In this document: positions 1 through 64,000 of the stretch, in pieces
Numbering within the stretch: position 1 is the first letter of the stretch
Layout: every line of letters starts with the position of its first letter
Source: Paraspadella gotoi
Lineage: Eukaryota > Animalia > Chaetognatha
Direction of reading: 5' to 3'
Assembly (NCBI GenBank): GCA_051294375.1
Contig: CM119265.1
Span: 348,328 to 412,327 of the forward strand
DNA length: 64,000 nucleotides
Made by a program: the position numbers and the translations under genes
Notes under the pieces: generated by a model
Database searches by the model: none
What the model saw: the letters and a program-made list of their open reading frames with translations, nothing else
What the model was told of the DNA's origin: nothing

Positions 1-63
1 CCTAACCCCCTAACCCTAACCCTAACCCTAACCCTAACCCTAACCCTAACCCTAAACCCTAAA
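1..63 (+). repeat. Telomeric repeat (CCCTAA)n, tract 1
   Basis: About 10 CCCTAA units at the window start. Confidence 0.95.
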
Positions 64-67
64 CCAC

Positions 68-940
68 CGTAGATTCGAACCCCGATATTATTTTAATCCA
101 CAAGTGTGACACATGCCAGTTAATGGCCATCTCAGATCGATACAGACCTTTTTCTGAACTCATATTTATACTCGAATCGATTTTATAATAATAATAATAA
201 TAATAAAAAGAGGCGATGGACTGGTCTCGAACTCGGGACCTTCGATCCACGAGCGGCGACTCTACCAGCATCGCCACTCAGTCCGATGACATTAGAATGT
301 TAATCTAACTTATATAACTTGTATAACTCATTCGTTATATAATCAGATTGCTCTTTTATTGTTTAGAACAAATGATCATTTATATTTTATTTTAAACATA
401 TGTTTTTACTTTGTTGTTTCCACAAGGTCTGGAAAATCTTTTAATCAGTTTAAACAAAATTATTCACATCGAAAAGACTCGTTAAAATTATTGTTAATCG
501 GTTTTACTACTTCATTATTATTCATTTAATTGCATTTTATTGCTCATATAGATATTGCAATTACTAATTAGTAAATGGAATATCTATATGCTTTGATTAT
601 TTTATTAAGGTTCCATTTTAATCAATAACCAAACAAAGTTGGTTAGTCTTTTTAAAAACATTCAATAAACAAACATCACGCCACGTGCGTCAACGCCAAC
701 GTCAGCGTCACTTCCGGTTTGGGTTAAAAGGCTAATAACTCTATCAAATCCTACCTCTGGTCTTCCCGAGTCACGCCATCCAACTTCATTGACCTCTCGC
801 GACGCCAACGGCCGCGCCAGAAGCGACGCCAACTCGAAGGCCACGCCCACTTTCGTTCGATCGACTCCATTCACTCGCCGATCGACTCATCATCAGGTGC
901 GTCATCTCGTCAACAAAGTGAGTTGTTTACGCCATCTACA
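68..940 (+). repeat. 5' LTR of copy A (left boundary approximate)
   Basis: Starts (C)GTAG after the telomeric tract and ends CTACA immediately before the PBS. Confidence 0.7.
218..285 (-). promoter_or_regulatory. tRNA-like Pol III A/B-box cassette in LTR A
   Basis: Minus strand TGGCGATGCTGGT ... GAGTTCGAGACC with tRNA-like spacing. Confidence 0.6.
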
Positions 941-941
941 T

Positions 942-979
942 TGGTGATCCGCGACGTCGGACTCCCTCAACCTTCTGAT
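942..979 (+). promoter_or_regulatory. PBS (tRNA-Trp type) plus second tRNA-Trp-complementary box, copy A
   Basis: TGGTGATCCGCGACG at 942; CAACCTTCTGAT at 968-979. Confidence 0.75.
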
Positions 980-994
980 AAATCAACTATATCA

Positions 995-3900
995 ATGAGC
1001 GACTCTCGCGAGACGCGACAAGCCGCCCGACAACGCCAGCAAGCAAGCCCTAAACGTGCCCGCTGGATTCGGTCGTGGCCGAAACTCTCGTGAAAACTCG
1101 CCATCGAATCTCGTTAGGCGCCTCGCCGCGCCAATCTTCAACAACCCACCGGCGCAACGGAACCAGAAGTCTTTGCTGACGCCGAGGACAACGATACTGG
1201 CTAACGCCGCCGCCCTGGAGCGAAACGCGGAAGCTCTCCGTCGACCGCCCTCGCCACCGCACCTCGCCGCTCTAGAGAAGAAGAGGAAGCCTGACTTCCT
1301 CACTTCGATCCCAAAAACATCGACGTCTGGCCCGCCGAGTCGAAGCGGTTTATGTTCGATCCAATATTCGCGACGCTAAGGAGAAATTTGCTCACTTAGA
1401 GTCTAAGATGACGTCAATCTTAATCCGCGCGTCAACGCCTTTCTCTACGGCGAGCAAATCGGACAGACGCTGGAACGAGTTCGTCCTCTATCTTCAGAAA
1501 GAGTATGAGCTCCACTCCGCGCCAGCAGGCGGCCGTCTTACTCGATGGCTTTTGGCCGCGACGGCCTCAGACCATCGCAGCACCTCGCACGATTGGAGGA
1601 AAAGATAAAGGCTTAACCATCGATGATCTAAAGAAGGAACGGTCATTAGAGGACTCCCCATTGAAGTCCAACGCCTCCCTCGAGGGAAAAGCCGATTCGT
1701 TGACGGCGCAGAGTTGGCCGATGAGGCGACAAGTTCTTTGATCAAGACGGACGTCTACGACTGGCAGCTCCATCATCGACGATCAACGCGCCACTCTCAA
1801 ACAACTCGTCGACGACGACATAAGCGACAGCGACGACGAGGCAGAGATAAACGCTGTAGGGGGACAGCGCCGCGACCGCAGCCGCCCGTCAAACGGGAAC
1901 TGGAGGTCCAATGCAGCGAAGCCTCCCTCAAGCAGCGCCAGACCGCCAAGTGGCTCGTCAACGAATCCCCGCCCGGCCAATCAAAAGCTTAAGCAAATCT
2001 GCCGCTACCATCTCTAAGTTTGGCGACGCCGCTTTTAAATGCGAGCGCGGTTGTGCCCGCAGAAACAGATTTTATGGAAAGACGACGATTCAAAGCCGGG
2101 AAACGGAACAGCGGGCCCGCGCAGGTGAACGCGGTGCCCCGCTCAGACGACGACTCACCCGACTTTTCCTTCTTCCGTCGTAGACGCCAGTGACGGTCGT
2201 CAGCTGGCTAGTGGATGGTGGAGCTCTGCTTTCCCTCATCCTCCGACGCCGGAGCAGAGAGCGGCGGGTCCAACTGGAGCACAATTACAACGGGCCAAGC
2301 CGGTAAGTCCAATAGCATGTTACGGCATAGCCCTCGACGCATTACGCTCGGCCCAAGAATATTTCCTTTCGATGTACTAATAGCCGATGTTACTCAAAGC
2401 ATTCTTGGGCCGACTTTGCTCGCGAATATTTATCTCGCCCCGAATCAACCGCGATGGCTTATTGTTGGACTTAAAAGGACTACTCGACCATTCCGTGCGC
2501 AGTTACACCGCGCAAAGCTTCCGTCACAGATCAACTTCGTCGATCAAAAGGAGAACGTATCTACCAACTCCTCGACAAATACCCATCGCTCTCCAAACCA
2601 AGTTTTGAGCTGAAGGAGCCTAAACATGGAGTTCGGCACCATATTCCCAACAGAGGGCCGCCCATGTCAAGCACGAGCTCGGCGCCTCGATCCGAGAAGC
2701 TGGCTGTGGCCAAAGCTGAATTGGAGAGATGGTGGCGCTTGGCATTGCCAAACGTTCCAAGAGCGCCTGGTCGTCACCCATCCTGTGTGCTACCCAAGTC
2801 AGACGGCGGCTGGAGAGTCTGTGGCGACTTTCGACGCCTCAACTCCAGTGACTAAAGACGACAAGTACCCGGTGAAGTTATTAGCAGACTTCAACGCCCA
2901 ACTCGCCGGGAAAAAGAGTCTTTTCAAAAGTCGACTTACTGAAGGGATACCACCAATCCCAGTGGCGGACGAGGATGTGGTAAAACGGCCGTAATCACGC
3001 CCTTCGGCCTGTTCGTCTTCCTGAGAACCCCGTTCCGACCTTAAAACGCCGGACAGGATTTCAGCGAATGATGGACGAATCCTGGGCGACGTCCCCCACA
3101 CTTACGTGTATCTGGACGACATCCTCGATCGCCAGCGAGACGACGAGGAACAGCACGTGCTGACCTCGAACAGGTCTTCAAGGCCCTCTCGAGCAACCGG
3201 GCTCGTCGTAAACAGAAGAAGTGCGAGTTGGGGAAAAATCACTCGAGTTCCTCGGCTACCTGGTGGACGCGTCAGGCGTCAAGCCTCTTCCCAAGAAGGT
3301 CGACGCAATCCGCGCCACCAATCCGCCAACGACGATTAAGGAGCTCCAGCGGTTCTTGGAATGGTGAACTACTATCGCCGTTTCCTTCCAAGGGCCGCCC
3401 ACCAACGCCGCACGCCCTCTACGACGCATTAGCCGGCAGCCCAAGCAGCCTTATGTACTGAATGGGCTGTGTATATAGGCTTCAACGCAGTGAAGAGGCC
3501 CTGGCGAACGCGCGCTTTGCTCCGTCACCTCCGAACACGCCCAGCTTTCTCTATACGACCGCGCTTCCGACATCGGGCCGTCGGCGCGTCCTTGAGCGCG
3601 CAGCGGCCGATGGATGGGAACCCGACATGCCTTCTTTTCGGCCAAGTTAGACGAGGCTCAGCGAAGATGGCCCGCCCGTTCATCGGGAGCTCTATGGCGC
3701 ATTTAGACAGTGCGTCATTTTCGACATTGGCTGGAGGGTCGGACGGCTTTTAGCTGTTTTATACCGACCACCAGTCATTATTCACGCTCTCACAAACTTG
3801 TTCCGGAACCCCCAAACTACTCGGCATAATTTCAGTTATCCGTGATCTCCGAGTTTCACGCCGCGACATCGACGACACGTGGGCGTGGAAAGGCCAATGT

Positions 3901-5170
3901 GGTGGCCGATGCCCTCTCCAGGCCAACCCACCTGCCTTCAATCGCCTCCGTCGACAAACCAAAAGTCTCCGACGAAAAAAGTCGAAGACCTCAATCGGGC
4001 ACTATCAACGCGATTGGGCAGGAAGGAATCGACCTTCAAGAGATGGCTCGCCACCAGGCCCTCGACAGAGACTAGCCAACGCCTCACTAAGGACGCAACG
4101 AACTGGGCTGAGCTTCAGAAAAATTAAACTCGGCGACCAAGAATCTACTCGTTGACGTTTCGATACGGCCCCGCCCGCCGCCTTCGTCCAGAATCATGGC
4201 GCCCGTCGAATCTTCGACGTCCGTTCATGCCTGGGCCATCCGGCGTCGCTAGGACACAGGGAAACAATATCCTCTAAATTCGTCTGGCCATCAATCCGAG
4301 CGGATAGCGACACGCTGGGCGAGAGAGTGCATCCTTGCCAGGCAGGCGAAGGTGACTCGCCACGTCACGCCCAATATCCGGCGATTCAACTCCCTGCTCG
4401 CGCTTTCAACATCTGAATGGTAGATATAACGATCATGCCAGCGTCAAACGGCTTCGGCTATCTCCTCACTGTCGTAGATCGTTTTTACCAGATGGCCGAC
4501 GCGCTACCCATGAAGAACATGGCTTCGACCACCGTGGTCGACACCCTCGTCCCGGATGGATTGCGACATTTGGAGTGCCCTCAGACATCACTACAGACAG
4601 AGGCGCCCATTTAGTTCGTCAACATGACCAGCTCGCGCAAATATGGGCATCCACCACCATCAACTGCAGCGTATCATCCACAAGCGAACGGGCTTGTGGA
4701 GCGCTTTCACCGGCGACTCAAGGAGGCGCTAATCGCCTAGCGGCAGAAGACCCTCACCAATGGTTCTGGCGTCTCCCTCGGCCTTACTCGCCATCCGGAC
4801 GACCATAAAGCCCGACATCGGCGCATCTCCGGCCGATTCGTTTTTGGAGAAGGTCCACCGTCCCTGGCGCCTACTTCTCCAGCTCCACGGACGATCAACC
4901 TTCGGCAAAGCGTCGTATCGTTGCGAAATAATTTACGCGTCGAATAGAACGTTAAACCTACCGAAACGGTCTACGCATCGCCGCCAACGTGTATCTCCCG
5001 ATTCGCTCGTCCAGCCACCACGTATTCGTACACGCCCGGCGTCATAACCGCCCCCACAGCGCCTTACCAGGGGCCATTCCGCGTTCATCTCGCGGATAAA
5101 TTTGAACTTCGTACGATTCCTGGGTCGAGGCGTCGAGACGGTAGCGATCGCCAGAATCAACCAGCGACAA
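995..5170 (+). pseudogene. Frameshifted gag-pol of copy A
   Basis: Homologous to the intact copies but broken into many short ORFs; slippery GGGAAAC at 2098-2104. Confidence 0.8.
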
Positions 5171-5521
5171 TATGGAGAGTTCGACGGCTACATCCCCCGC
5201 TGTTGGAATATAAGGGACTTAAATATTTCAAAAATACTTCGTTGTCGTCTAACGTGTGATTGAAAAGTATGATGATAAATCTTAAAATATTACTATAAAA
5301 AGGGGTTTTAAAATTGACGATCTGATTCACTTGACCGACTTTTCTTCTGACGCGGATCAATAAGCAATAATAATCAATTCGTACGAGTACGAAAAAATGT
5401 ACAAAAATTCAAAAATGTTGTAAAATTCAAAACAAAGAAATATAGGCCATAATACTGGGTAATTACAAATAATATGCGACTGTTGTAGCGCACCGCGCTG
5501 GGTGACGCTTGGCGGAAGAAA

Positions 5522-8500
5522 CTAAAGACCGGTTGCAACAGTCGATCTAGGCTTAGGCCTAACAGCGGGGATTTTGTTTTCTGTTTTTGTATCGTTGTTG
5601 TTTTTTGTTTCTGTATTATTGTTTTTGTTGTTGTTCTCCCCCGCTTGGCGTTTTATCAACTCTTTTAGAACTATAGCATAAGTTGGGCGATAAGGCTTGT
5701 TAGAAAAATTTTCAGGTGTTGGCCTAGAAAACCTACACGTTGGCTCATTTCTCAGGTTTTCTTTATCGCTCGGTTGAGATTGTTCTTTTGGGGAATGAGT
5801 TGAATTGCTTGTCGGCCGATTTGGAGGTGTTGCAGGTGGTCCAGGTTCCTGAAATGATGGGGATGGGTCGGGGGGGGGATGGGGTAGAGGGGAGGAGGGT
5901 GAAGGAGGCGGAGGAGACATCGACGGAGAAGGAGAGGCCGCTCTCAGGTGCTGCCTATGAGTAGTCGATGAATCTGAAACCCGGTTTTTCGATCGAGTAG
6001 TCCTTGAAGTTGGAACCGGGTTTCTCGTTCTTGGTCCTGGTCGTCGGCCTGGTGGTCTCTCTTCGCGCGGTTCTGGGTCATCGATTTGCCTGTCGTCTTC
6101 GCTGACCCAGGCTGGCTTGACCCTGGCGATGTTGACCGTTTCATGACCTTTGCTGGGGATGTCGATCGTCATGTTGAGGTTATTGCGATGCACTACCCGA
6201 TAGGGACCTTCATAGGGAGGAACAAGAGGAGGGTTAACGCCGGCTCTTCTAATAAATACATACTTGGCTGTATTTAAGTTTGATGGGATGTGTATCGCCG
6301 GTTGACGATGAGCCGATGTCTGCGTGGGTTGAAGTCGTGCCACTTCGACCCTTAGTTTCGATAGCTGCGATCTTCTTTGTCGATTGAGATTTTCGTCGTT
6401 GACTTGGGCGTCACCTAGCATAGAGCCTGGGACGCCAATCCCTTCGCCGAAGACCAGATCAGCTGCTGACGCTCCTATGTCTTCCTTCACAGTTGTTCTG
6501 ATTGCAAGCAGCGTGAGGGGCAATCTCCAGAACCAATTTTCTTTTTCATCATTTGCTAATGCCATTAGGGACTCCTTTAGTCTTCGATGAAATCTCTCTA
6601 CCATCCCGTTGGCCTGTGGATGGTATGCTGTTGTTGTTTGGTTCTTGATTCCCCATGTTTTGGTCAGCTGCTGCCACAGATTTGAGGTAAACTGGCTACC
6701 TCTGTCGGTTGTGATTACAGATGGTGTCCCAAAGATGCTAATCCAGTTTAGACTTAGTGCATCTAGAATTGTTGGAGTCAATGTATTTTGCAGAGGTATG
6801 GCGGCAGGCCAGCGTGAAAATCTATCGACTATTGTCAATAGATATGAGAATCCGTTTGACCTGGGCATTTTGACGAGGTCAATGTTTAGATGCTGGAACC
6901 TTCGCGCTGGGACGTTGAACTCGCCTATTTCTGGGACGGTGTGCTTGGAGACTTTGGCGCGCTGACAATCTAGACAGTCTCGAGCCCAACGCGACACATC
7001 TTGGCGCATCCCTGTCCACACAAACTTGGCGGCGACGGCTTTTCGCGTGGCTTCGACTCCTGGGTGGCCGAGGCCGTGAATAACGTCGAAAATTTTGCGC
7101 CTCCATGACTTGGGAACGAATGGGCGCGCTGGTCCGTTGGAGATGTCTGCGAGTAGTTCCTGGTTACCAACCCTGATCTTGCGAAATGTGAGACCAGTCC
7201 TGGCGTCGTCGGCGAGCTTCTGGAAGTCGGGATCTAAGGCCTGCTCTTGAGCCATTTGCTCAAAGTCGACTTCGAAGTTTGTCAATGACGCTATGACGGC
7301 GTTGACGTCGTCGAGGCGGTCCTGCTTGATAGGGCGGTCCTCCTGACTCTCGACTGGTTGCTCGTTTTCTGCAGGAGTTGCTGGAGTCGTTGTAGGCCGT
7401 TTGCTCTTGGTGATCGGAATTGTTTTTGTTGACGCTGTCTCGCTGGTAGTCTTGTTGTCGTTGACGCCGGCGCTGACGCTTGTTGCAGCTGGTGGCGGGG
7501 CGTTAGGGCGAGACAGGGCGTCTGCCACTACATTGGCTTTACCCTTCAAATATCTGACGTCTGTGGTGAATTCGGCGATTGCCGATAACTGGTAAGACTG
7601 TCTTACTGTCTGGGGTTCCGATTTTTTTCGAATCGCCGATACGAGACTCTGATGATCTGTATAAAGGGTGAAGGCCCTGCCTTCCACCCAGTGGCGAAAA
7701 TGTCGTACGGCTCGAAACGCTCCGAAAAGCTCTCGGTCAAAAGGTGGCCATAGCTTTTGGTTTTTAGCCAACTTTGCCGAGAAAAAGGCTAAAGGTTCCC
7801 AACCTTTTGGGCCTCTCTGTTCAAGTACAGCGCCCACCGCATGATCCGAAGCGTCGGTTGTGATACAAAGCTGCGCTCCAGTGCGGGGGTGGTGGAGTAG
7901 GGCTGCAGAAATGAGTCCTTCCTTTATTGCTTCAAAGGCTGTCTCGCAGTCGTTTGTCCACACTAAGGCTTTGGGCTTGCCGCTCAGTGCTTCGTATAAA
8001 GGTGCGCATCGGTGGGCCACCTTTGGTATGAAGCGCCTGTAATAGTTTATCATGCCAAGGAATCTCTGCAATTCCTTGACAGATGTTGGCCTTGTCGTTT
8101 CCTGGAGGGTCTGGACTCTGGCGGGAAGTGGACGGACGCCATGCTTGTCGACGAGAAAGCCAAGAAATTCTAACGATTCTTGGCCTAACAAGCATTTTTT
8201 GGTGTTCACCACCAAACCGTTTTCGTCGAGCGCTTTAAAGACGCGTTCCAGGTCCTGTAGATGCTCCTCCGGCGAAGAGGATGCCACCAAAATGTCGTCC
8301 AGATAGACGAACGTGTGGGGGACGTCGCCCAAGATTTCGTCCATTAGCCGTTGAAAATCTTGACCGGCGTTCTTCAAGCCGAATGGGCAGCGTGGGAACA
8401 CGTAGAGCCCAAACGGCGTGATGACGGCGGTCTTCTTCACGTCTGCCGGATTTACCGGGATTTGGTGGTATCCCTTGAGTAAGTCAATTTTCGAGAAAAT

Positions 8501-9373: not shown

Positions 9374-10350
9374 GCGTCGTCCCCAAATTTAATGTGTTTG
9401 GCACACAACGTGGTCAGTTTCCCTTTGGTCTTAACCTTCTGATGCGGAGTAGGTCGTCGTTTGGCGCCAGTGGATCGACGTGGGCGATTGTCGACGGAGT
9501 TGATGGCGTCTTCCTCTTCAGAATCGCTTTCTATCTGCTGATGACGCTCTTTGTCCACGTGGCTCACTAGCGATGTTGCCTGGCGCAGCTTCACGTTACC
9601 GTCACTATCGAAGTGGCGGTCGGCGAGTTGGCAGAGGTCGTGGGCGCTGAGGTCATCCGCCTTCTCCTCGAGTTGGCGGCGAATTTCGAGAGGGATTTCG
9701 CGCAATATTTTTTCCTTTCGGATGTCGTCGAGCGTAAGAGTTTTTGTCTTTTCCTCCAGTTGTGCAAGCATTTTGGAGGGCTTTGCAGTGTCGACGTCGA
9801 GGGCGTCGAGGATATGTGCTGCTTGTTGGCGACGAGTTAATCCGTATTCTTTCCTGAGATACGCAATAAACTGTCGCCACGCCTCCTCTGAAGGTTCTCC
9901 GAATAAAAATTTGTTGATCGTGGGATCGACGCCAATTGCAATCTTCGATTCGAGATGCGCAAACTTGGTCTTCGGTGCTGTGATGCCCGCTCTGGTGTAA
10001 GCGGCTTCAGTCCTCTTAATCCATATTTCGATGTTAGCTACATCGAAGTCGGGCAAGTCCGGTTTTCTGTTTGACGCCCTTTCCAGCGCTCGAGTGGCCG
10101 CGGCGAGCGCCGCGCGAAGCTCGTCATTTTCGTCCTGTAGGCCTCGCGAAGGGGCGTCGGCCGTTGCCATGCTGTCGCTTCCGGTATTAGCGCCTCGAAA
10201 GTTGAATTCAGGCGCGGCGTCGGTGAATGCCGGAGACGGTGAGCGTGAGCGGAGGCCGGCGCCGAAGCTGAAGGGCAATTCGAGTCTTGTCGAGTCGCTG
10301 GCGTCGCGCTGGGCAGAGCGGAGTCGGGACCGAAGGTCTGAGCCACTCAT
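9289..10350 (-). CDS. gag: Gag of copy B (CsRn1-like, CHCC knuckle)
   Basis: LPDFD..NIEIW capsid-like start; C-x2-H-x9-C-x3-C (CAKHIKFGDDAWSCDPGC); overlaps pol in the -1 frame. Confidence 0.9.
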   Translation of the reverse strand: MSGSDLRSRLRSAQRDASDSTRLELPFSFGAGLRSRSPSPAFTDAAPEFNFRGANTGSDSMATADAPSRGLQDENDELRAALAAATRALERASNRKPDLPDFDVANIEIWIKRTEAAYTRAGITAPKTKFAHLESKIAIGVDPTINKFLFGEPSEEAWRQFIAYLRKEYGLTRRQQAAHILDALDVDTAKPSKMLAQLEEKTKTLTLDDIRKEKILREIPLEIRRQLEEKADDLSAHDLCQLADRHFDSDGNVKLRQATSLVSHVDKERHQQIESDSEEEDAINSVDNRPRRSTGAKRRPTPHQKVKTKGKLTTLCAKHIKFGDDAWSCDPGCARFNDVQKKKDLNSRGGRRR

Positions 10351-10536
10351 TGATTTCGTTTTGGCTCCGTTGGGCCGTCGGGGAACGTTTGCAATAAATA
10401 GAAAGGGCAAGCGTGAGCGGAACGGGCTATTAGCTTAATTCCCAATCTCTTCACCCGTTCTTACCTGGAAAACGGTGATCTTTAGCTGGTTCCCCTGTTT
10501 TTGAAGTTGGAAGCGTCCTTCGTCGAGCTCACCATG

Positions 10537-11185: not shown

Positions 11186-11253
11186 CAACCCAACCCTAAC
11201 CCAATAAACCCTAACCCCTAACCCTAACCCTAACCCTAACCCTAACCCTAACC
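11186..11253 (+). repeat. Telomeric repeat tract 2
   Basis: CCCTAA units. Confidence 0.9.
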
Positions 11254-51569: not shown

Positions 51570-51827
51570 AGCCCCCCTTTATAATATAATCTCAAAAAAT
51601 ATTATAATAAAAATTGTTGTCGTCCAACGTGTGTGATTGTATGAGTGTGAAATAATATTACTAATTGGGTTTTAAAATATGTACAAAATATCGAAGTGGT
51701 TTGACAACCGGTTTAAACATGTAAAAGAAAAATTCAAATCGTTGCATACAAATTCCATAACAAACATTTCATAACAACAAAAATTTACAAAACAACAACA
51801 AATCGTTACATCTTGAATCTTTAATAA

Positions 51828-54800: not shown

Positions 54801-55793
54801 GAGGATTTCATCCATGAGCCTCTGAAAGTCTTGTCCGGCATTTTTCAAGCCGAACGGACAACGCGGAAAAACGTAAAGGCCGAATGGGGTTATAACCGCC
54901 GTTTTTTTTACATCTTCCGGATTGACGGGTATCTGGTGATACCCTTTTAGAAGGTCGATTTTCGAGAATATAGTTTTGCCTTCTAATTGGGAGTTGAAAT
55001 CCGTGAGAAGCTTGACGGGGTATTTGTCATCGATTGTTTGCGCGTTGAGGCGACGGTAATCGCCACAACAACGCCAACCTCCGTCCGGCTTCCCTACAAC
55101 GTGGAGTGGCGACGACCATTCCGATTTACCCCGTTTAGCAATGCCGAGGGAGACCATTTTCTCCAGCTCCCTTTTCGCGACGGCAAGCTTTTCCGGGTCT
55201 AAACGGCGTGCTCTCGATTGGCAGGGCCTGCCCTCCGTTGGGATCGAATGCGTTACTCCATGGCGCGGCTCTTTTAATTCGAAAGTGGGCGTGGAGAGAG
55301 ACGGAAACGAGTCGAGTAATTTGTAAAATTTCTCCCCCTGCCTGTCGACGAAGTTGACATGGGAAGTAGTCTCTGCTGCTGATGATGCTGCGATCGTCGA
55401 ATAATCTTTGAGATCCAGTAACAGCCCGTCTCTATGGTTTGGCGCCAAATAATTCTCGGCTAGAAAGTCCGCGCCCAAAATATGCTGCTTCACATCTGCA
55501 ATGACGAATTCATATTGAAATTGGCGGTTTCCGAGTTGCACTACTCTTTTCGTTGTCCCATAGCAGCCGATTGGCGAGCCGTTGGCCGCTTGAAGGCGAA
55601 TCTTCGGGTCAGGGCCGCCTTGTCGCTGTGCTGCCGTTGGCGGAACGATCGAAAGAAGGGCTCCCCCATCCACGAGCCACTTCGTGCGGTCTTTGGCGTC
55701 GCGGATGTATAGGAGGTCACTCGACGCTGGTGATTGATTCATCTCCTGGGGGACGGCGTTCACCGACGTCGTCCCCCTTTGGAGTTTCCCTCC
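51828..55793 (-). CDS. pol: Pol of copy J (intact)
   Basis: 1311-aa ORF with WLVDGGA, YLDD, RNase H, IN and PYEGPY. Confidence 0.95.
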   Translation of the reverse strand, partial: GGKLQRGTTSVNAVPQEMNQSPASSDLLYIRDAKDRTKWLVDGGALLSIVPPTAAQRQGGPDPKIRLQAANGSPIGCYGTTKRVVQLGNRQFQYEFVIADVKQHILGADFLAENYLAPNHRDGLLLDLKDYSTIAASSAAETTSHVNFVDRQGEKFYKLLDSFPSLSTPTFELKEPRHGVTHSIPTEGRPCQSRARRLDPEKLAVAKRELEKMVSLGIAKRGKSEWSSPLHVVGKPDGGWRCCGDYRRLNAQTIDDKYPVKLLTDFNSQLEGKTIFSKIDLLKGYHQIPVNPEDVKKTAVITPFGLYVFPRCPFGLKNAGQDFQRLMDEILGDIPHTFVYLDDILVASSTPEEHYNDLEKVFKALDANGLVVNTKKCLLGQESLEFLGFLVDRHGVRPLPERVKTLQETTRPTTIKELQRFLGMINYYRRFISRVAHRCAPLYDALSGKPKTLEWTEECDQAFQAIKEGLIQAALLHHPRTGAQLCITTDASDQAVGAVLEQRGPKGWEPLAFFSTKLAKNQKLWPPFDKELFGAFKAVRHFRHWVEGRSFTLYTDHQSLVTAIKKKAEPQTMRQSYQLSVIAEFTTDVRYLKGKANVVADALSRPNATPTTTPTPETTSTSTEKAPAPTSSTISSLTTTTSTPTSSSTSPSSPASPLVPSTTTPPSKEATAASKTPGVVSFEISSHSPSPSSLLSSPSASSTTKSETSEKSIKSNRLEDAEAMIASMTSFEIDFESMAREQTLDPDYQKIAEDARSGLTFRKIKIGNYDLLADISNGPARPFVPASWRKKVFNVIHGLGHPGIEATRKAVAAKFVWTSMRQDVTKWARDCLDCQRAKITRHVIPEIGEFKVPQKRFQHINLDLVKMPLSNGFTNLLTIVDRFSRWPTAIPIKDTLTSTILDAFSHNWISVFGTPATITTDRGTQFNSALWRQLTKQWGIKHQMTTPYHPQANGLVERFHRRLKESLIALARENKEEWYWKLPMTLLAIRTTVKEDIGASAADLVFGEGIGVPGCILDDAQLDDAALQRQRKNQLAKLRIEVARLQPTPTSAHHRPTIHLPSNLDSAQYVFVKRAGVHPPLVPPYEGPYRVVNRNNLNITIEIPSSGRETINIARVKPAWVSDETLEMDQEHPRRRPAGRPPGLRTRVPAPTSRTTRSSNQRAASPNPAPPPPSPPPPPPPPPPSASQLSPNIPQPLPDPQPSPLRFFLPPSHSPEPPRNTGSKTKDREENNNNNKQKDENDPNRERFSRPTISDFSSRCPNRPTYSVVLKEMLQRQKMQNDKQQQQQKDKSPPVGLIDSRSIFARHPRSSSRLHRSDCQP

Positions 55794-56827
55794 TTCTTAC
55801 GCTGAGTGTCGTTGTACCTGGAGCATCCTGGCTCACAGGACCACGCTTCCTCTCCAAACTTAACGTGTTTGTGGCAAAGCGTCGTCAACTTGGATTTGGT
55901 CTTGCCTTTGTGGATCTGGTTGTGCTTCTTTTTGTTGTTGAAGGCCTTCTTGACGTTGGCGCCGACAGCATTGACGGCGTCGTCGTCCTCTGAATCAGAT
56001 TCGAGTCGCTCTACGTTGCTGATGAACGTCGTCGATTGGCGAATTTTCACATTGCCTTCATTATCGAAATGCCTGTCTGCTATTTCGCACAACTCCTTTG
56101 CCGACAGGTCGTCCGCTTTCTCCTCGAGTTGACGTCTTATTTCGAGTGGGAGTTCCCTGAGGACCTTCTCTTTCCGGACGTCGTCGATTGTCAAAGTTTT
56201 TGTCCTCTCTTCGAGCTGAGCTAATAATTTAGACGGTTTTAATCCGTCGGCGTCGAGAGGATCGAGGAGGTTGACGGCCTGTTGGCGTCGCGTGAGGCCG
56301 TACTCCTTGCGGAGATATCCTAAGAAAGCTGACCATGTTGCCTCCGTTGCCTCGCCGTATAGAAACTGGTTAATGCGAGGATCTACCTTGACGCCAATCT
56401 TGGACTCAAGATGAGCAAACTTCGTTTTTGGAGCAGTGATGCCGGCGCGTGTATATGCCGCTTCCACGCGTTTTATCCAGATTTCGATATTATCCTTGTC
56501 GAAATCCGGAAGCTCCGGCTTTCGACTGGATGCCCTTTCGAGGGCGCGCGTGGCGGCGGCTAAAGCGGCGCGAAGTTCGTCGTTTTCGTCCTGGAGGTCG
56601 CGTTGGCTGTTTCCCTCTGACGCCATGTCGGCGTCGACGAAGTTTTCGGCGTTGATTTCTCTGAAGTTGAACGAAGGAGTAGCGTCAGCGAAGACGGGGG
56701 AGGTAGAGCGTGACCTAGCGCCGCGTCCAAAGCCTATAGGGACCTGTAGGCTCGATGCAGCGTTGCCTTGACCTTCAGCGTTGCGCTGGGCTGATCGTAG
56801 GCGGGATCGGACGTCTGAGTCGCTCAT
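55760..56827 (-). CDS. gag: Gag of copy J
   Basis: 355 aa; CHKHVKFGEEAWSCEPGC knuckle. Confidence 0.93.
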   Translation of the reverse strand: MSDSDVRSRLRSAQRNAEGQGNAASSLQVPIGFGRGARSRSTSPVFADATPSFNFREINAENFVDADMASEGNSQRDLQDENDELRAALAAATRALERASSRKPELPDFDKDNIEIWIKRVEAAYTRAGITAPKTKFAHLESKIGVKVDPRINQFLYGEATEATWSAFLGYLRKEYGLTRRQQAVNLLDPLDADGLKPSKLLAQLEERTKTLTIDDVRKEKVLRELPLEIRRQLEEKADDLSAKELCEIADRHFDNEGNVKIRQSTTFISNVERLESDSEDDDAVNAVGANVKKAFNNKKKHNQIHKGKTKSKLTTLCHKHVKFGEEAWSCEPGCSRYNDTQRKKEGNSKGGRRR

Positions 56828-57034
56828 GAGTCGATTCGAAATGCTCGTCGACTAGTGGTGCCGTTTTTTGACTCCGTGTGGCGGTCGAAAATGCAAGGAA
56901 ATAATAGGGGTGTGAGCAATTGGATGATTGGCTTAATAACCCCGATTTCCTCACCCAATCTTACCTCAGGGGAGATTGATTCGCGTTAGACCGCCTGTAG
57001 AAGGTTGGTTGCGTTTTAAGTCGAGTTCACCAAG

Positions 57035-57732
57035 TGTGGTGAGGCATATGAGTTGAACCACAGCGCGACGACGTTGCCTTACACACCTTGTGACATATGT
57101 GCTGAGCATCATGACGATCTTAGTCTTTTAGCGTTAGACGTTAGATGGCGCAGGGAAAAGTAGGTCACATGATTTGTAGATTATATTGAAACGTTTATAA
57201 TTAATATTTGAAGCGAGATTAAATATGAGATTAATATTAAACGTTTGTTTATTAAGATTCGTTGTGAGATTATTAATTCGAATGAAGAATAATTAATTGA
57301 AGATTAATTTATTTTATTGGATTAATAATTTCACTTGTTGTAAAATCGAGTTCTCATCATTTAATGTACTCAATACATTTCGGGATAGATTTAAAACAAT
57401 GTTTTTTAATGTTGTTTTAACATTATATTAACGAGATCAAAAACAAGAGTAAAATGAATCAGACTTCAATCATTGAAGTAAACAGTTAATAAAACAAAAG
57501 CAGTTGAAATGGCGGTAAGACATCTCTAGTTGAGTTCTATTAATCTAGGAAAAACAAAAGGCTTCGTTCTTGGTTTAAAGCTTTAAAACAGGTTTTAATC
57601 TGGCGATAAAACATGGCCTCTTGGTTGGCTGAGAGGTTAAACTCGAAGCGTCCCAAGCCTGAGTTCGAGGTTCGAATCCCGGCTGCTGGATGAATTATTT
57701 TCTCACCAGATAATTCGCTCAAGTTGGCCGCA
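57035..57732 (-). repeat. 5' LTR of copy J, with tRNA-like cassette 57614-57690 (+)
   Basis: Direct repeat of 50876-51569. Confidence 0.92.
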
Positions 57733-57762
57733 ACCCTACTAACCCTTAACCCTAACCCTAAC

Positions 57763-57799
<37 letters not shown>

Positions 57800-57926
57800 C
57801 CCTAACCCTAAACCCTATACCCTAACCCTAACCCTTAACCCTAACCTACCCCTAACCCTAACCCTAACCCTAACCCTAACCCTAACCCTTACACCAACTG
57901 CTAACCCTAACCCTTACCCTTAACCC
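57733..57926 (+). repeat. Telomeric repeat tract 8
   Basis: CCCTAA array. Confidence 0.93.
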
Positions 57927-58774
57927 TGTGGCATAAGGCGCTAAGTGGGCGAAGATGACTATCCGTTAACTCTCTATTACCTCCCTCTAGCAGACCATGG
58001 AACGAGTCCTGGGCTCTTGCGATACAGGCTTGAGGGTTCGCCAACGCCCCCAAGGCCGGCTTACCCGGCCGTCCTCACTCTTCCCGCAAGGTCAGCTACC
58101 GGCGCTTGTGCATTTGAACCCGGCTGAAACCGGGCCTCCTGGTCCCAACGGTGTTTAGCGACCGTCCCTCCCATTTTTGACCTGAATTGTGGTCCATGAG
58201 CCCGAATCGGCGTCTGTAGCTCAAAATGAGCCACCGGGGTCCACATACTTGAAAAGCAGTTCTATGCTTTATAGGCTGGGGGTTTGAACCATTGCAATGC
58301 CCCGACTACATGCCCCCCCAGATTGTCAACCCACCCTGCACTGCTTTCCAGCTGGAGGGAGGGGAGCAATTCGTTCGCGCACGTCATGGGCCTGATTCAG
58401 AAGGTGGGAATACGCATCGACAGGATGCACGGTCTCTCACCAGCTGCTGGGAATAAGGCCGGCTAAGTGGGCGCCTTGAGTTATGACTATTTCCCGTAAC
58501 TTCTTATATACCCCCTCTATGCAGCACAATGGAACGGCGTTCCTGGGCTTTTGCGAACCAGCGCTGAGGGCTTTCGCCACGCCCCCAAGGCGGCCTGTAC
58601 GGCCGTCCTCACCTCTTTCCCGCAGGTAGGTACCGGCGTTGATTGAACCCACCGTAGCCTTAGTGGTCATGAGCTGATGCGCTGTTTACTCAATGAGCCA
58701 CTCGGGTCACACTGAAAGAGGTCATGCTTATACGGCGCGGCACCCTGTGACACCTAGGCAATGCTCGGACTACA
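57927..58774 (-). mobile_element. Non-autonomous miniature LTR element (TRIM-like)
   Basis: Noisy direct repeats 57927-58310 and 58445-58774, both ending GACTACA. The 134-bp interior has a PPT (58313-58319), a TCAGAAGGTG box and a PBS (58431-58442); no ORF. Confidence 0.75.
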
Positions 58775-59189
58775 CCACTAACCCTAACCCTACTTACACC
58801 GCTAACACCATAACCCTAACCCTAACCCTACTAACCCGTACCCTAACCCTAACCCTCAACCCTAACCCTAACCTAACCTACCCTAACCCTAACCCTAACC
58901 CTAACCCTTAACACCCTAACCCTACCCTAAACCCTAAACCCTTAGACAAACCACCTAACCCTAAACCCTAACCCGTAACCCGACCCTAACCTAACCTACC
59001 CTAACCCTAACCCTAACCCTAACCCTGACTAACTCAACCTAACACCTAACCCTACCCTAACCCTAACCCTAACACCTTAAACCTAACCTAACCCTTAACC
59101 CTAACCCTACCTAAACCCTTAACTAACACCTAACCCTAACCCTAAACCCTAACCCTATACCCTACCCACACCTGACTAACCCTAACCCC
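58775..59189 (+). repeat. Telomeric repeat tract 9 (degenerate)
   Basis: CCCTAA array with many variants. Confidence 0.9.
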
Positions 59190-62100
59190 TGTTGGCGCGG
59201 CGTGCATATAGTGGAGCCCCAGACTTGACGAAGCACCGCTACGCCGTTAAGTGTAGTGTCACTAGACTCTTACAGACATTCCAAGCCAGATAATTAATGA
59301 ATGATTAGCTTGGGCCGCAGGGAATCTTTGTGCGCTATTCTGAATGTATATCAGTTTTATTCGCTAGACGGCAGCAGTAGCAATCAGATGGTCCGTCGTT
59401 TAGTCTCTTTCGAATTAGGCACCATTAAGGACGGTTTTAATTTAGCAGTTGAAATTAAACGGAGTTAATGTTAGTTCGAGCATTAAGAATCTTTGAGACT
59501 ACTACCGGTTTTTAACACTTCTTTAATTCAGCCGCATCTGAATCATTCTTTCAGAATTAGCAGCATTCTAATTCTTTAGATTTTATTTCGATTTGATCTT
59601 TATTTTCTCATGTTTTTAATGTAGCTATTTACATTTTAGTGAGAGATTAAATATAAAACAATGAGATCAAATCATTACGTATTCATGTATTATTTGACAT
59701 GAACATTAACAAAACCGCAACCTTGCATTTCAGATCTAGAAAACACAAACTCTCAGAGCGATAACACAATCGATTGCAGCAGCAGCTGGCCGAAATGATT
59801 TGGCGTACCGCCCTCCTGACGGAGGAAACCAACTAGTTTTGTAGGAAACAAATAGATGTACATACGCGAATATCTGTTTTAAATGCTTTAGGTTCGAATT
59901 CGAATTCAATTCGATTTTCAGAAGCCAGTTTAGCGCTTGCGCTATAATCGCTGGGCTTCTCGCACTCTTCACGATACCAGGATCGCAATCCTAGATCGGT
60001 GGCCGCATCTATTTATACAATAGTAGGTCGATCGAAGCATCTTCATCCCCCTTGCTGATTAAATATATAATCTTTATAATATTTACATTAAAATTTGAAA
60101 GTTAATAGAATTAAAATTGTTGTCGCTCCGGTAATGTGCTGTGATTGTGTACAAAATATATAAACCGTATTTCTTAACATTGCGGGTAAATCGTAGTTTC
60201 ATTTCGACGAATTGAAATAAAAAATTGACCTAGATTTCTAGAAATTGACGAAGGTATAAAATCTGTACAAATAAATTATTGTAAAATACTGCTAAATTGG
60301 GTTTTCCCAAGAATACTTTAATATACAAAAACAACCAAAATATTTATTCTAATAATGGCTTAAGGGAGCTCGGCCGTCGAAGTCAATGCCGAGGGTGCGA
60401 TGCTGTCATGGAGGCGAGATTTTCAAGCTGACTGGCTTCGACCGGTTGACCTTAAGGCGGCAAAATTATTTGGTTTCTATTTTCTACTTGGATTTTTCTT
60501 TTGCTGTCCCTGCTTGATCAACTCTTTCTGCAGGAACCTCCCAGCGGCGATGCTTAGGGGCGTTCGCGTCGCACGCTTTGTGACCGCCTTGTTCGAAAAG
60601 TTCGTTGGCAGCGTTTGGCTCTCGAGCAATACGCGCTAATAGCGTTGGTGCTTCATCTTTTTGCTCCTCTCGGCTTAGTTGTGCTTTGTCTGTTGTTCTA
60701 ACTGATTGTCTCTTTTTCTCTCGCTACGTACTGAACGTTCGTTAGCGTTGGTCAATGTCCATCCGTCATGGCGAGGTGCGCTGACAGGTACAAGGAAGGG
60801 AAGGATGGGTAGCCAAAAAAAACGCGCGGGAAGGAGGGGGGTTGTTGCCGGGGAAGTGGGGGAAGGTTTTGGTGCGCCTGCCGGTCGGCGGGAAGGATGC
60901 GCAGGATGCGACGGAGGAGGAGCGAGGGAGGAGGTAATTGGAGGAGGGCACAGCTGCGCGCGTTGGATTTGCTCTATTCGCTGCGGCCGAGGTGAGGTTC
61001 TTGACTGTCGGCGCGTGGCTGCCCTGCGTTCTGACGCCAGCTGTGCGGCGGTCTCGCCCTGGCCTTGCTCTCTGGATGTCCTCTGCGGCGGGTGTCGACC
61101 TCCAACTCGTCGTCACTAATCCATGCCGGTTTTATTCTGGCGATGTTGACGGTTTCCCTTCCCACGTTTGGAACTTCGATTGTCATATTTAGCCCGTTTC
61201 GGCTAATAACGCGGTAAGGACCGTCATAAGGTGGCACCAAGGGGGGGTGTACGCCTGCCTTGCGTACAAACACGTATTTTGCAGAGTCGAGATTTGCTGG
61301 TAAATGCACCGCGGGCTGTCGGTGGGCGGAAGTAGGCGTGGGCTGGAGTCTGGCGACCTCGATACGCAATTTCGCCAATTGATTCTGACGTTGTCGATTT
61401 AGAGAGTCGTTGTCGGGTTGAATGTCGCCGAGTAAGCTTCCAGGGACGCTAAGACCTTCGCCGAAGACCAGATCCGCCGCGGAGGCGCCGATGTCCTCTT
61501 TGATTGTCGTTCTAATCGCGAGTAACGTCAATGGCAATTTCCAGTACCATTTCTCTCTCGATTCTTTTGTCAACGCCATAATTGACTCTTTGAGCCGTCT
61601 GTGAAATCTTTCCACAAGCCCATTTGCTTGTGGATGATATGCGGTAGTTGTCTGATGTTTTATGCCCCAGTTTTTCATTAACTGTTGCCATAATGTCGAA
61701 CAAAACTGACTACCTCGATCTGTGGTTATGACGGCCGGCGTTCNNNNNNNNNNNNNNNNNNNNNNNNNNNNNNNNNNNNNNNNNNNNNNNNNNNNNNNNN
61801 NNNNNNNNNNNNNNNNNNNNNNNNNNNNNNNNNNNNNNNNNNNNNNNNNNNNNNNNNNNNNNNNNNNNNNNNNNNNNNNNNNNNNNNNNNNNNNNNNNNN
61901 NNNNNNNNNNNNNNNNNNNNNNNNNNNNNNNNNNNNNNNNNNNNNNNNNNNNNNNNNNNNNNNNNNNNNNNNNNNNNNNNNNNNNNNNNNNNNNNNNNNN
62001 NNNNNNNNNNNNNNNNNNNNNNNNNNNNNNNNNNNNNNNNNNNNNNNNNNNNNNNNNNNNNNNNNNNNNNNNNNNNNNNNNNNNNNNNNNNNNNNNNNNN

Positions 62101-64000
62101 NNNNNNNNNNNNNNNNNNNNNNNNGAATTATGTTAAATATCTTCTTTCGCCATGCAGCTGGGACGAATGGGCGAGCTGGACCATTAGATATATCCACTAG
62201 TAATTCTTGTTCACCCACGCGGATTTTTCTAAATGCAANNNNNNNNNNNNNNNNNNNNNNNNNNNNNNNNNNNNNNNNNNNNNNNNNNNNNNNNNNNNNN
62301 NNNNNNNNNNNNNNNTTTCGAAGTCAATTTCGAAGCTGGTCATAGACGCTATTACAGCGTTGACCTCCTCGAGGCGGTCAGGCTTGACGCTGCGCTCGAG
62401 GTGATTCTCTCGTTGCTCTTCTGATGTGGTTGTTGAGGGTGATGCTTCCTCCGTGGGTGGTTGTGTTTGCGTTATGGGTGGTGGATTATTTGGTCGTGAG
62501 AGGGCGTCGGCCACCACATTGGCCTTTCCTTTCAGATAGCGGATATCTGTGGTGAATTCCGCTATTGCCGACAACTGGTAGGACTGACGAAGAGTTTGAG
62601 GTTCCGTTTTTTTGCGGATTGCCGAGACCAAGCTCTGATGATCCGTATAAATCGTGAACGCACGACCTTCGACCCAGTGCCGGAAGTGGCGGACTGCCCT
62701 GAACGCTCCGAAGAGTTCCTTGTCGAAGGGTGGCCACATTTTTTGATTTTTGGCTAATTTTGCTGAAAAAAACGCTAGTGGTTCCCACCCTTTGGGACCT
62801 CGTTGCTCCAGAACTGCGCCTACAGCTTGATCAGATGCGTCGGTAGTGATGCAAAGCTGCGCGCCGGACCTTGGATGATGGAGTAGTGCCGCCGAGATGA
62901 GGCCCTCCTTGATGGCCTCGAATGCTTGCTCGCACCCTGGTGTCCAATTCAACGATTTTGGCTTGCCGCTTAAGGCGTCGTACAGAGCGGCGCAGCGGTG
63001 GGCGACTCCTGGAATGAAACGCCTATAATAATTAACCATACCAAGGAAGCGTTGAAGCTCCTTGATAGTGGTTGGGCGTGTCGTCTCTCGAAGTGTCTGG
63101 ACGCGTTCAGGTAGTGGTCGGACGCCGTTTTTGTCGACGAGGAATCCCAAGAACTCGAGGGACTCCTGTCCGAGTAGGCATTTTTTCGTATTTACTACGA
63201 GTCCATTTTCATCCAGAGCTTTGAAGACTCTTTCCAGATCTTCCAGGTGCTCCTCCGGAGACGATGATGCGACCAAAATGTCGTCTAAGTAGACGAACGT
63301 ATGGGGGATCTCACCCAAGATCTCATCCATCAAACGCTGAAAGTCTTGTCCTGCGTTTTTCAAACCGAAAGGACAACGAGGAAAGANNNNNNNNNNNNNN
63401 NGAGTGATTACAGCCGTCTTTTTTACATCTTGAGGATTTACCGGGATTTGATGATAACCTTTGAGCAAGTCTATCTTCGAGAAGATAGTCTTGCCCTCCA
63501 GTTGCGCGTTGAAGTCCGTTAGTAACTTCACTGGGTAACGATCCTCGACGGTCTGGGCGTTGAGGCGACGGTAGTCGCCACAACNNNNNNNNNNNNNNNN
63601 NNNNNNNNNNNNNNNNNNNNNNNNNNNNNNNNNNNNNNNNNNNNNNNNNNNNNNNNNNNNNNNNNNNNNNNNNNNNNNNNNNNNNNNNNNNNNNNNNNNN
63701 NNNNNNNNNNNNNNNNNNNNNNNNNNNNNNNNNNNNNNNNNNNNNNNNNNNNNNNNNNNNNNNNNNNNNNNNNNNNNNNNNNNNNNNNNNNNNNNNNNNN
63801 NNNNNNNNNNNNNNNNNNNNNNNNNNCTTTGAGTTCGAAAGTAGGAGTGGACAATGAGGGAAACGACTCAAGCAGCTTGTAATATTTTTCCCCTTTTCTG
63901 TCTACGAAATTCACATGAGTTGGCTGCTCCTCCGCTGTCGACGCTGCTAATGGTCGAGTAAGTCCCTTTAGATCTAAGAGGAGTCGCGTCTCGATGATTT
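59190..64000 (-). mobile_element. Gypsy copy K (3' LTR and pol; continues past the window end)
   Basis: LTR-like 59190-60045; PPT 60046-60051; pol with YLDD, RNase H, IN and PYDGPY; large N gaps. Confidence 0.9.
60360..64000 (-). CDS. pol: Partial Pol of copy K (gapped, noisy C-terminus; end approximate)
   Basis: ORFs 62197-63531 (RT/RNase H) and 60974-62218 (IN). Confidence 0.85.

What the first reader, a model, noticed from the sequence alone, without database searches (positions are those of the whole stretch)
1..64000. Telomere-repeat-targeting Gypsy LTR retrotransposon system
Seen: about ten CsRn1-like Gypsy copies from two sub-lineages (YLDD group A/B/I/J/K; YIDD group C/D/E/G/H) alternate with (CCCTAA)n tracts, and LTR ends abut the repeats directly. 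Several ORFs are intact and paired LTRs are near-identical (C, J), suggesting recent activity. Known: telomere-repeat specialists are mostly non-LTR or Penelope-like (TRAS/SART, HeT-A/TART/TAHRE, MoTeR, Athena); Ty5 targets silent chromatin, not the repeat itself. Inference: a diversified lineage of integrase-based LTR elements specialised for TTAGGG arrays that makes up most of this region. I know of no described equivalent, but cannot search.
Basis: partly seen in the sequence, partly recalled or inferred. Interest (0 to 1): 0.95.

Follow-up and report, generated by a model that had tools for sequence, protein, structure and literature searches.

The report
Gypsy retrotransposons nested in telomere repeats
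Ten different Gypsy-type retrotransposons and one miniature dependent element alternate with TTAGGG telomere-repeat tracts, ten of the eleven facing one way and most readable ends joined at the same point of the repeat, so they are likely aimed at telomere repeats, a niche otherwise described for retrotransposons that have no integrase.

Summary
Ten distinct CsRn1-clade Ty3/Gypsy elements (RT-RNaseH 66-91% identical among the 8 compared) and a newly found 0.85-kb TRIM alternate with nine (CCCTAA)n tracts. All 13 LTR outer ends with a readable flank touch telomere repeats. Ten of 13 fit one register, TA|ACCC|TA with a 4-bp duplication (6 exact). Ten of 11 elements face the same way. Best reading (0.6): an integrase-based lineage aimed at double-stranded telomere repeats, by a tether (inferred) plus a symmetric cut after TA. 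Genome-wide specificity is untested: no genome was held and junctions were not seen in independent reads. A plain TA-RNNY-TA preference would also explain the lack of nesting here, since 267 of 322 such sites lie in the tracts. The assembly is noisy and locally mosaic. Seven literature searches found no LTR element inserted in telomere repeats; Repbase and GyDB were not searchable. New variant of a known kind.

The parts
1..62 (+). (CCCTAA)n tract 1; joins element A inside its LTR, at no recognisable terminus
63..5480 (+). Element A (YLDD group), the only one on +; 5' LTR to 940, PBS at 942, heavily frameshifted gag-pol, no 3' LTR; meets B tail to tail
5481..11186 (-). Element B (YLDD): 5' LTR 10537-11186, gag 9289-10434, unbroken pol 5522-9388; 3' UTR and 3' LTR missing
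11187..11253 (+). (CCCTAA)n tract 2 between B and C
11254..17732 (-). Element C (YIDD): LTRs 11254-11720 and 17268-17732, gag 15862-16917, pol in two frames around a gap
17733..17897 (+). (CCCTAA)n tract 3
17898..24942 (-). Element D (YIDD): 3' LTR 17898-18335; 5' LTR 24519-24942 with its first bases at 23963; a foreign mosaic piece lies at about 23987-24493
24943..25686 (+). (CCCTAA)n tract 4
25687..27571 (-). Fragment E (protease-RT-RNase H region, noisy), broken inside pol where it meets tract 4
30940..37022 (-). Element G (YIDD): gag 35587-36753, pol 32141-35641, an unrelated ~650-bp insertion (31575-32227) in the integrase tail; PBS present, both LTRs missing in place
37035..37324 (+). 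(CCCTAA)n tract 5
37326..38222 (-). Two unattached LTRs (H1 37326-37749, H2 37777-38222) either side of a 25-N gap; likely the displaced LTRs of H and G (inferred)
38223..38443 (+). (CCCTAA)n tract 6
38444..44064 (-). Element H (YIDD): only the last ~7 bases of the 3' LTR plus PPT; 5' LTR starts at 44035 and runs into a gap
44165..50064 (-). Element I (YLDD): unbroken pol 44510-48241, gag 48211-49368, 5' LTR 49491-50064; 3' LTR in a gap
50065..50875 (+). (CCCTAA)n tract 7
50876..57732 (-). Element J (YLDD): full length, LTRs 50876-51569 and 57035-57732, gag 55760-56851, unbroken pol 51828-55796; ACCC on both flanks
57733..57926 (+). (CCCTAA)n tract 8
57927..58774 (-). Non-autonomous TRIM X: two noisy LTR copies (57927-58309, ~58445-58774), PPT, ~130-bp core, Trp-type PBS and the leader motif of the autonomous elements; same strand and same left register
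58775..59189 (+). (CCCTAA)n tract 9
59190..64000 (-). Element K (YLDD): 3' LTR 59190 to ~60046, gapped pol; runs off the window
11077..11152 (+). Example of the antisense A/B-box module in U3 (B). Others: 11484-11561, 17502-17580 (C); 18119-18198, 24725-24804 (D); 37546-37625 (H1); 38006-38084 (H2); 49957-50030 (I); 51458-51531, 57622-57684 (J); 59931-60007 (K, weak); 221-283 and 58-122 on - (A)
51957..52070 (-). Example of the integrase C-terminal tail motif (J). Others: 5639-5749 (B), 12135-12281 (C), 18783-18929 (D), 31191-31331 (G), 38920-39060 (H), 44555-44731 (I)

Best explanation
These are CsRn1-clade Ty3/Gypsy LTR retrotransposons of ten families, plus a dependent TRIM, that lie inside (TTAGGG)n tracts in one register and nearly all in one orientation, and their integrases are likely steered to double-stranded telomere repeats rather than landing there by chance. 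Shown: normal LTR anatomy (Trp-type PBS, PPT, CHCC gag, PR-RT-RH-IN, no env), 4-bp ACCC duplication (4 modulo 6, since the target is a repeat), element sense strand on the G-strand. Inferred step 1: the intasome cuts just after TA on both strands with a 4-base stagger; the six-base period puts a TA on each side of ACCC, so only one register of the repeat offers this symmetric site. Inferred step 2: a tether, most likely the short conserved motif pair at the end of the long proline-rich integrase tail binding a host protein on telomeric DNA (as Ty5 integrase binds Sir4), brings the complex to the repeats and sets the orientation, U5 end joined to the G-strand. J, whose family is young, sits between internal tracts, so the cue is likely duplex repeat or its chromatin, not the 3' overhang. 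Inferred step 3: the antisense A/B-box module in U3 likely recruits TFIIIC/Pol III as a boundary or open-chromatin aid that lets the element be transcribed amid telomeric chromatin. The four tract ends that fall inside elements would be breaks healed by telomerase or assembly errors.
For: 13 of 13 LTR outer ends with a readable flank abut a tract; none abuts other DNA. Left ends: 3 of 6 exactly TAACCC|TGT (D, J, X), 3 differ only in or next to the C-run. Right ends: 3 of 7 exactly |ACCCTA (H2, I, J), D one C short, 3 noisy. Exact 6 of 13 against 1/6, p 0.013; lenient joint p 2.8e-4, register chosen after looking. The 4-bp length is what CsRn1 elements make (PMC2582038, section 6). Orientation 9 of 10 (p 0.021), the TRIM making 10 of 11. 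Families are distinct (63-75% DNA; 66-91% RT-RH protein), so these are independent insertions. The one clear nested insertion, in G's tail, is unrelated to these families. Tail variants FS[RK]PTx[EDS][ND]FS and RPxY[AS]xVL: 7 of 7 readable window tails across both sub-lineages, 0 of 108 relatives with a tail, although 70 of 108 carry a looser form (patterns drawn from the window). A/B module: antisense in 9 of 10 LTR families, sense in 0 of 10, per-LTR shuffle rate 14-64 of 500, B box exactly 62 bases from the U3 end in B, I and J. Element I is held by 8 DNA runs of 2 studies at 73-92% of words (one may be the source sample). J is covered by near-identical contigs in 4 of 4 runs.
Against: No genome-wide flank count exists and no junction was seen in independent reads or contigs. 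TA-R-NN-Y-TA sites number 267 inside tracts and 55 outside, so sequence preference alone gives about 0.83 per insertion locally and the lack of nesting does not prove tethering. A lies in the opposite orientation. The two sub-lineages are no closer to each other (66-71%) than to outside relatives (69-76%); one clade is not rejected but not shown. The tail motif and a tRNA-like LTR segment may be host-lineage traits unrelated to targeting; no relative with a readable flank was available to tell. The A/B modules are not scored as tRNA by ARAGORN or Rfam and the T-stem shows no covariation; their function is untested. The assembly is noisy and mosaic at 23.97-24.52 kb and 37.0-38.45 kb, so element order is partly unreliable. 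That the window is a chromosome end is not known.
Confidence: 0.6

Rival explanations
1. No telomere specialisation. The integrases simply prefer TA-RNNY-TA sites, insert genome-wide, and copies pile up in telomere tracts because these are dense in such sites and harmless to hit; orientation is sorted afterwards by selection.
For: 267 of 322 such sites in the window lie in tracts, which explains both register and lack of nesting. Known CsRn1 elements show no target preference among copies (PMC2582038, section 6). Two sub-lineages that are not shown to be sisters share the habit.
Against: A strand-symmetric site gives no orientation bias, yet 10 of 11 elements face one way, including a non-coding TRIM. 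Eleven insertions on about 270 sites would imply thousands of copies genome-wide at the same per-site rate (inference). Both sub-lineages share a tail variant absent from 108 relatives.
Confidence: 0.2
2. Ty5-like domain targeting. The elements are tethered to heterochromatin or subtelomeric chromatin in general, and within it the TA-RNNY-TA preference picks the repeat tracts.
For: Precedent: Ty5 integrase binds Sir4 and inserts in silent chromatin near telomeres (PMC4700185 and PMC7175516, passages). A long tail with short conserved motifs fits a chromatin tether. Internal tracts are used.
Against: No CsRn1-type copy is nested in the ~55 kb of neighbouring element DNA of the same domain, which holds 55 such sites (weak: probability about 0.2 for eight insertions). 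No chromodomain among Pfam hits. Orientation would still need a polar cue.
Confidence: 0.12
3. Assembly artefact. A scaffolder or gap filler stitched unrelated elements together through telomere reads, making up the junctions.
For: 16 N-runs, indel-rich tracts (281 of 442 units exact), A and E at raw-read-like quality, a duplicated LTR piece, LTRs displaced around G and H, a tail-to-tail A/B join.
Against: Stitching does not place base-exact LTR termini in one register with a 4-bp duplication that matches the clade. J has matching ACCC on both sides with no N in or beside it. Mis-ordering through repeats presupposes that each element really has telomeric flanks.
Confidence: 0.08

Closest known systems
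CsRn1 clade of Ty3/Gypsy (CsRn1, PwRn1, AgCR1-14; PMC2582038, abstract, passages and section 6 read)
   Same: CHCC gag motif, Trp-type PBS, 4-bp TSD, gag/pol offset by one frame, GPY/F motif, no chromodomain or env, slightly non-canonical LTR ends.
   Different: Known members show no target preference; protease reads DGG instead of DTG/DSG; long proline-rich integrase tail with its own motif pair; antisense A/B box in the LTR; all readable flanks are telomere repeats.
Ty5 of Saccharomyces (PMC4700185, PMC7175516; passages read)
   Same: LTR element drawn to telomeric regions by a short integrase motif that binds a host protein; the model for the inferred tether.
   Different: Ty5 is a Copia element, targets Sir4 heterochromatin (also mating loci) and is not placed at a fixed base of the telomere repeat.
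Telomere-repeat-specific non-LTR elements: TRAS/SART, MoTeR, FoTeR, Tx1-1_ACar, GilM/T, Zepp (PMC10088271, PMC12857005; passages read)
   Same: Several families interleaved with telomerase-type repeats, fixed site and fixed orientation.
   Different: They insert by target-primed reverse transcription with an endonuclease; these elements have LTRs, PBS/PPT and a DDE integrase.
Helenus / TRIMp3 and Cassandra (PMC10886601; abstract, parts 1-2 of 6 and passages read)
   Same: tRNA-derived A/B-box promoter motifs conserved inside LTRs without a tRNA fold; 4-bp TSD and Gypsy partners in animals.
   Different: Those are non-autonomous TRIMs using the Pol III promoter to make their RNA, and the paper expects autonomous partners to lack it. 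Here the module is in autonomous elements and antisense, and the TRIM X lacks it by my pattern. The paper notes that 'not a few' Repbase LTRs resemble part of a tRNA.
Dada DNA transposons (PMC3706591; abstract and passages read)
   Same: A DDE enzyme inserting at a fixed base of a multicopy target.
   Different: DNA transposon, small-RNA gene targets, 6-7 bp TSD.

Membership tests
Ty3/Gypsy LTR retrotransposon | Domain order PR-RT-RH-IN between LTRs with PBS and PPT | tested here: met
   Pfam order in B, G, I, J; LTR pairs, PBS, PPT
CsRn1 clade | CHCC gag motif C-x2-H-x9-C-x3-C | tested here: met
   6 of 7 gags examined; D's frame changes inside the motif; 67 of 70 gag relatives
CsRn1 clade | PBS complementary to tRNA-Trp (TGGTGA[G/C]CCCG[T/A]) | tested here: met
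   TGGTGAGCCCGA in H and close variants in A, B, C, D, G, I, J, X against the paper's motif; host tRNA not available
CsRn1 clade | 4-bp target site duplication | tested here: met
   ACCC on both flanks of J, near-match for D; 4 modulo 6 because the target is a hexamer repeat
CsRn1 clade | GPY/F motif, no chromodomain, no env | tested here: met
   GPY/GPF in translations; no chromodomain or env Pfam hit in 28 ORFs; 3' regions hold no long ORF
CsRn1 clade | Protease DT/SG tripeptide | tested here: not met
   DGG in all readable window proteases and in most relatives; listed in the paper as a conventional motif, not a clade-defining one
CsRn1 clade | Phylogenetic grouping with named CsRn1, Kabuki, Boudicca sequences | not testable with these tools
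   No named reference came back; the tree shows a 100/100 clade with unnamed relatives only
Telomere-repeat-specific element | Fixed site and orientation within the repeat | tested here: met
   10 of 13 junctions fit one register, 10 of 11 elements one orientation
Telomere-repeat-specific element | Copies absent or rare outside telomere repeats genome-wide | not testable with these tools
   No genome held; could not show flanks
TRIM (element X) | Under 1 kb, two LTRs, PBS and PPT, no coding capacity | tested here: met
   848 bp; LTR pair score 272 against shuffled maximum 72 of 300; PBS, leader and PPT
Helenus (element X) | tRNA-derived sequence in the TRIM's LTR | tested here: inconclusive
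   No A/B hit on either strand, but the sequence is noisy
tRNA gene (LTR module) | Cloverleaf scored by ARAGORN or Rfam | tested here: not met
   T-stem 63% paired, no covariation

The most novel reading that the evidence does not exclude
A guild of integrase-encoding LTR retrotransposons has specialised on telomerase-made TTAGGG repeats: a short integrase-tail motif docks on a telomere-binding protein, the intasome inserts at one base and in one direction, a Pol III-type box in the LTR shields the element from telomeric silencing, and a TRIM rides on the system. Chromosome ends in this organism would be built largely from these elements, the LTR counterpart of TRAS/SART.
Probability: 0.4. Interest if true: 0.9.

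Novelty: new variant of a known kind. Interest (0 to 1): 0.74.

Why it matters
Site-specific insertion into telomere repeats has been described for non-LTR and Penelope-like elements; a 2013 paper states that sequence-specific integration is seen almost only in non-LTR elements (PMC3706591, passages). An LTR lineage doing this would show that a DDE integrase can reach base-exact, oriented insertion in a host repeat. It would add a new tethering pair (integrase tail and telomere factor) beside Ty5-Sir4, and give a natural case of chromosome ends expanded by integration rather than by reverse transcription at the end. The conserved antisense A/B box in autonomous LTRs makes the idea of elements carrying their own chromatin boundary testable.

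Tried and rejected
Tandem amplification of one insertion: rejected, the copies are distinct families. Telomere repeats as part of the element: rejected, PPT-side and PBS-side twins fix the LTR ends outside the repeats. tRNA genes in the LTRs: rejected. My first nesting statistic (p 5e-7 to 0.07 depending on assumed tract length) was dropped as evidence for tethering once one search showed that the preferred-site motif is concentrated in the tracts. Flanks from short-read contigs: 0 of 176, 0 of 220, 1 of 126 and 0 of 115 contigs ran over J's outer ends and no listed loose end lay at an LTR boundary, but 339 loose ends were not shown and human-like (TTAGGG) records are filtered, so this says nothing either way. 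No RNA holder listed. Relatives' flanks: of 80 metagenome loci, about 7 are close relatives (59-69%); none holds a TTAGGG run and none gave a readable outer flank (ends of L005 and L008 were cut from the output). Viral contigs gave nothing. A tRNA-like antisense segment seen by eye in L005's LTR was not scored by Rfam or by my model; the resemblance is recalled, not tested. Search with the tail alignment: 2,175 candidates, none at E<=10, weak evidence. No named relative was found, so the host group is not identified. Earlier findings: four look-ups, nothing. Trees: one search used 130 cores; searches used 48 of them, chosen by hand; A and E were left out as too noisy.

Full report
1. Observation. 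The window holds nine (CCCTAA)n tracts, all on the same strand, 2,967 bases in all. Of 442 repeat units 281 are exact and most others differ by one base in a run, the error pattern of noisy long reads (my inference). Self-BLAST gives 63-75% DNA identity for long internal matches between copies and 94-97% between paired LTRs. Pfam finds RT, RNase H and integrase domains in Gypsy order and no chromodomain or env among 28 ORFs scanned. B, I and J have unbroken pol frames. A and E are heavily frameshifted. There are 962 N in 16 runs.

2. The elements are real DNA of the organism. Element I is held by 8 DNA runs from 2 studies at 73-92% of sampled words, and by one further run at 15%; one holder may be the source sample. 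For J, contigs of 4 of 4 runs cover the element with 0-2 substitutions per listed long piece, collapse both LTRs into one sequence and lack the window's extra single bases. J's LTR differences are therefore largely assembly noise and its family is young. These contigs did not show what flanks the LTRs, so the junctions rest on this assembly alone.

3. Junctions. LTR termini were fixed by TG, by the PBS and by the PPT-side twin. Thirteen outer LTR ends have a readable flank and all 13 touch a tract. On the + strand the six left ends read TAACCC|TGT exactly in D, J and X, one C short in C, one C long in K, and with CC before GTAG in H1. The seven right ends read |ACCCTA exactly in H2, I and J, one C short in D, and are noisy or clipped in B, C and X. 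The shared flank is ACCC, a 4-bp duplication (4 modulo 6). Exact matches are 6 of 13 against 1 in 6 (p 0.013); the lenient joint value is 2.8e-4; the register was chosen after looking. The target reads TA|ACCC|TA: on both strands the cut falls just after TA and before a purine, and only this register of the hexamer offers that symmetry. Four other tract ends lie inside elements (A's LTR, E's pol, just past G's PBS, the stub of H's 3' LTR); these may be telomerase-healed breaks or assembly errors. Nine of ten elements run along the G-strand (p 0.021). A is the exception and has no verified integrase junction.

4. Family. Against the CsRn1 features in PMC2582038 (abstract, passages and section 6): CHCC motif in 6 of 7 gags, Trp-type PBS, 4-bp TSD, gag and pol offset by the same one frame in 6 of 6, GPY/F motif, no chromodomain or env. 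The protease reads DGG rather than DT/SG. That paper reports no target preference in known members. The best 120 of 3,693 pol hits are 119 unnamed ENA proteins at 53-67% identity and one EukProt protein. In a 48-row RT-RNase H tree the YLDD group (B, I, J, K) and YIDD group (C, D, G, H) are each 100/100 and sit, unresolved, in a 100/100 clade with the ENA proteins. Their union is not rejected (p-AU 0.32) and not shown: the groups are 66-71% identical to each other and 69-76% to their best outside relatives. The host group could not be identified; an animal is likely from the clade's known range (inference).

5. (a) X at 57,927-58,774 is a TRIM: two LTR copies (score 272 against a shuffled maximum of 72), a PPT, a PBS and the leader motif shared with the autonomous elements and with L001, L003, L005. 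It has the same strand and left register. (b) Nine of ten LTR families carry an A-box/B-box pair, always antisense; none has one on the sense strand; shuffles hit in 14-64 of 500 per LTR; the B box lies exactly 62 bases from the U3 end in B, I, J and 152-187 in C, D, H1, H2 (box consensus recalled; K's hit is weak; the loose pattern also hit 16 places outside LTRs, 15 of them on +). ARAGORN and Rfam do not call them tRNA and the T-stem does not covary, so promoter boxes rather than an RNA fold seem conserved. PMC10886601 (abstract, parts 1-2 of 6, passages) describes such modules in non-autonomous TRIMs, expects autonomous partners to lack them, and also notes that many Repbase LTRs resemble part of a tRNA. 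tRNA genes and TFIIIC sites act as heterochromatin boundaries in fission yeast (PMC4450266, passages), which is the basis of the boundary idea. (c) The integrase ends in a long proline-rich tail with two short motifs; nine columns are invariant across seven tails of both groups. The window-type variants occur in 7 of 7 readable tails (K's is unreadable) and 0 of 108 relatives with a tail, while looser forms occur in 70 of 108. The patterns were drawn from the window, so this is a candidate, not a test.

6. Mechanism. Shown: anatomy, register, TSD, orientation, independence of the families. Inferred: symmetric cutting after TA; a tether to duplex telomere repeats through the tail motif, by analogy with the six-residue Ty5 domain that binds Sir4 (PMC4700185, PMC7175516, passages); a boundary role for the U3 module. 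The main result against a tether is: TA-R-NN-Y-TA sites are 267 in tracts and 55 outside, so the absence of nesting follows from sequence preference alone with probability near 0.2. What that rival leaves unexplained is the polarity (10 of 11, a non-coding TRIM among them), the density of eleven insertions on about 270 sites, and the shared tail variant. The assembly is mosaic in places (a 104-bp, 98% copy of the H2 LTR end inside D; LTRs displaced around G and H; the A/B tail-to-tail join), which affects order but hardly the base-exact register.

7. Prior art. Seven full-text searches on telomere-repeat insertion by LTR elements returned 1, 6, 3, 4, 3, 0 and 4 papers. I read passages of PMC4700185, PMC10088271, PMC3706591, PMC12581995 and PMC12857005; none describes an LTR element placed in telomere repeats. 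The other listed papers were seen as listings only. No supplements were read.

8. Verdict. A real and unusual arrangement; a CsRn1-clade member by its defining features, with a targeting habit not found in these searches. Specialisation 0.6, sequence preference plus survival 0.2, general heterochromatin tether 0.12, artefact 0.08. A flank census on long reads decides it.

Noticed in passing
window 51834-51916 and about 55750-55800: Two short pieces of J draw contigs at far higher depth than the rest (bins at 12,425 and 3,384 against about 150-400 in X1). The first is a long hairpin at the end of pol (-24.8 kcal/mol), with looser hairpins at the same place in I and K. A high-copy relative or non-autonomous element may share these cis-signals.
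   Followed up: partly
window 27572-30940: Non-Gypsy stretch between E and G: low-complexity ORFs with intron-like ends, a 41-bp tandem repeat (29001-29175) and degenerate TTAGGG-like sequence on the opposite strand (30635-30745). No Pfam hit; not identified.
   Followed up: partly
window 31575-32227: About 650 bp of unrelated sequence inserted in G's integrase tail, with GAGGG on both sides; the only clear nested insertion.
   Followed up: partly
window 11714-11720, 18329-18335, 24936-24942: C and D begin their LTR (U3 end) with TA instead of TG, while the U5 end is canonical CA.
   Followed up: partly
LTRs of C, D, H1, H2 (e.g. 17912-17921 with 18313-18322): Sub-terminal inverted repeats of about 10 bp a short way inside both LTR ends in the YIDD group, possibly extended integrase attachment sites.
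   Followed up: no
window 1-70 and 25680-25695: A's LTR and E's pol end in telomere repeats at short GGT/AGGG-like matches on the G-strand, as expected for breaks healed by telomerase; assembly error is not excluded.
   Followed up: partly
window 5460-5520: A and B meet tail to tail, both without PPT and 3' LTR: a deletion-inversion or a mis-join.
   Followed up: no
L005 about 700-770: A relative's LTR has an antisense segment that looks tRNA-like by eye (recalled resemblance; not scored by Rfam or my model), so such modules may be wider in this lineage.
   Followed up: partly
P0002-P0190: A large, diverse CsRn1-type lineage with DGG protease and a conserved integrase-tail motif is abundant among unnamed ENA metagenome proteins and has no named member in the hits.
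   Followed up: partly
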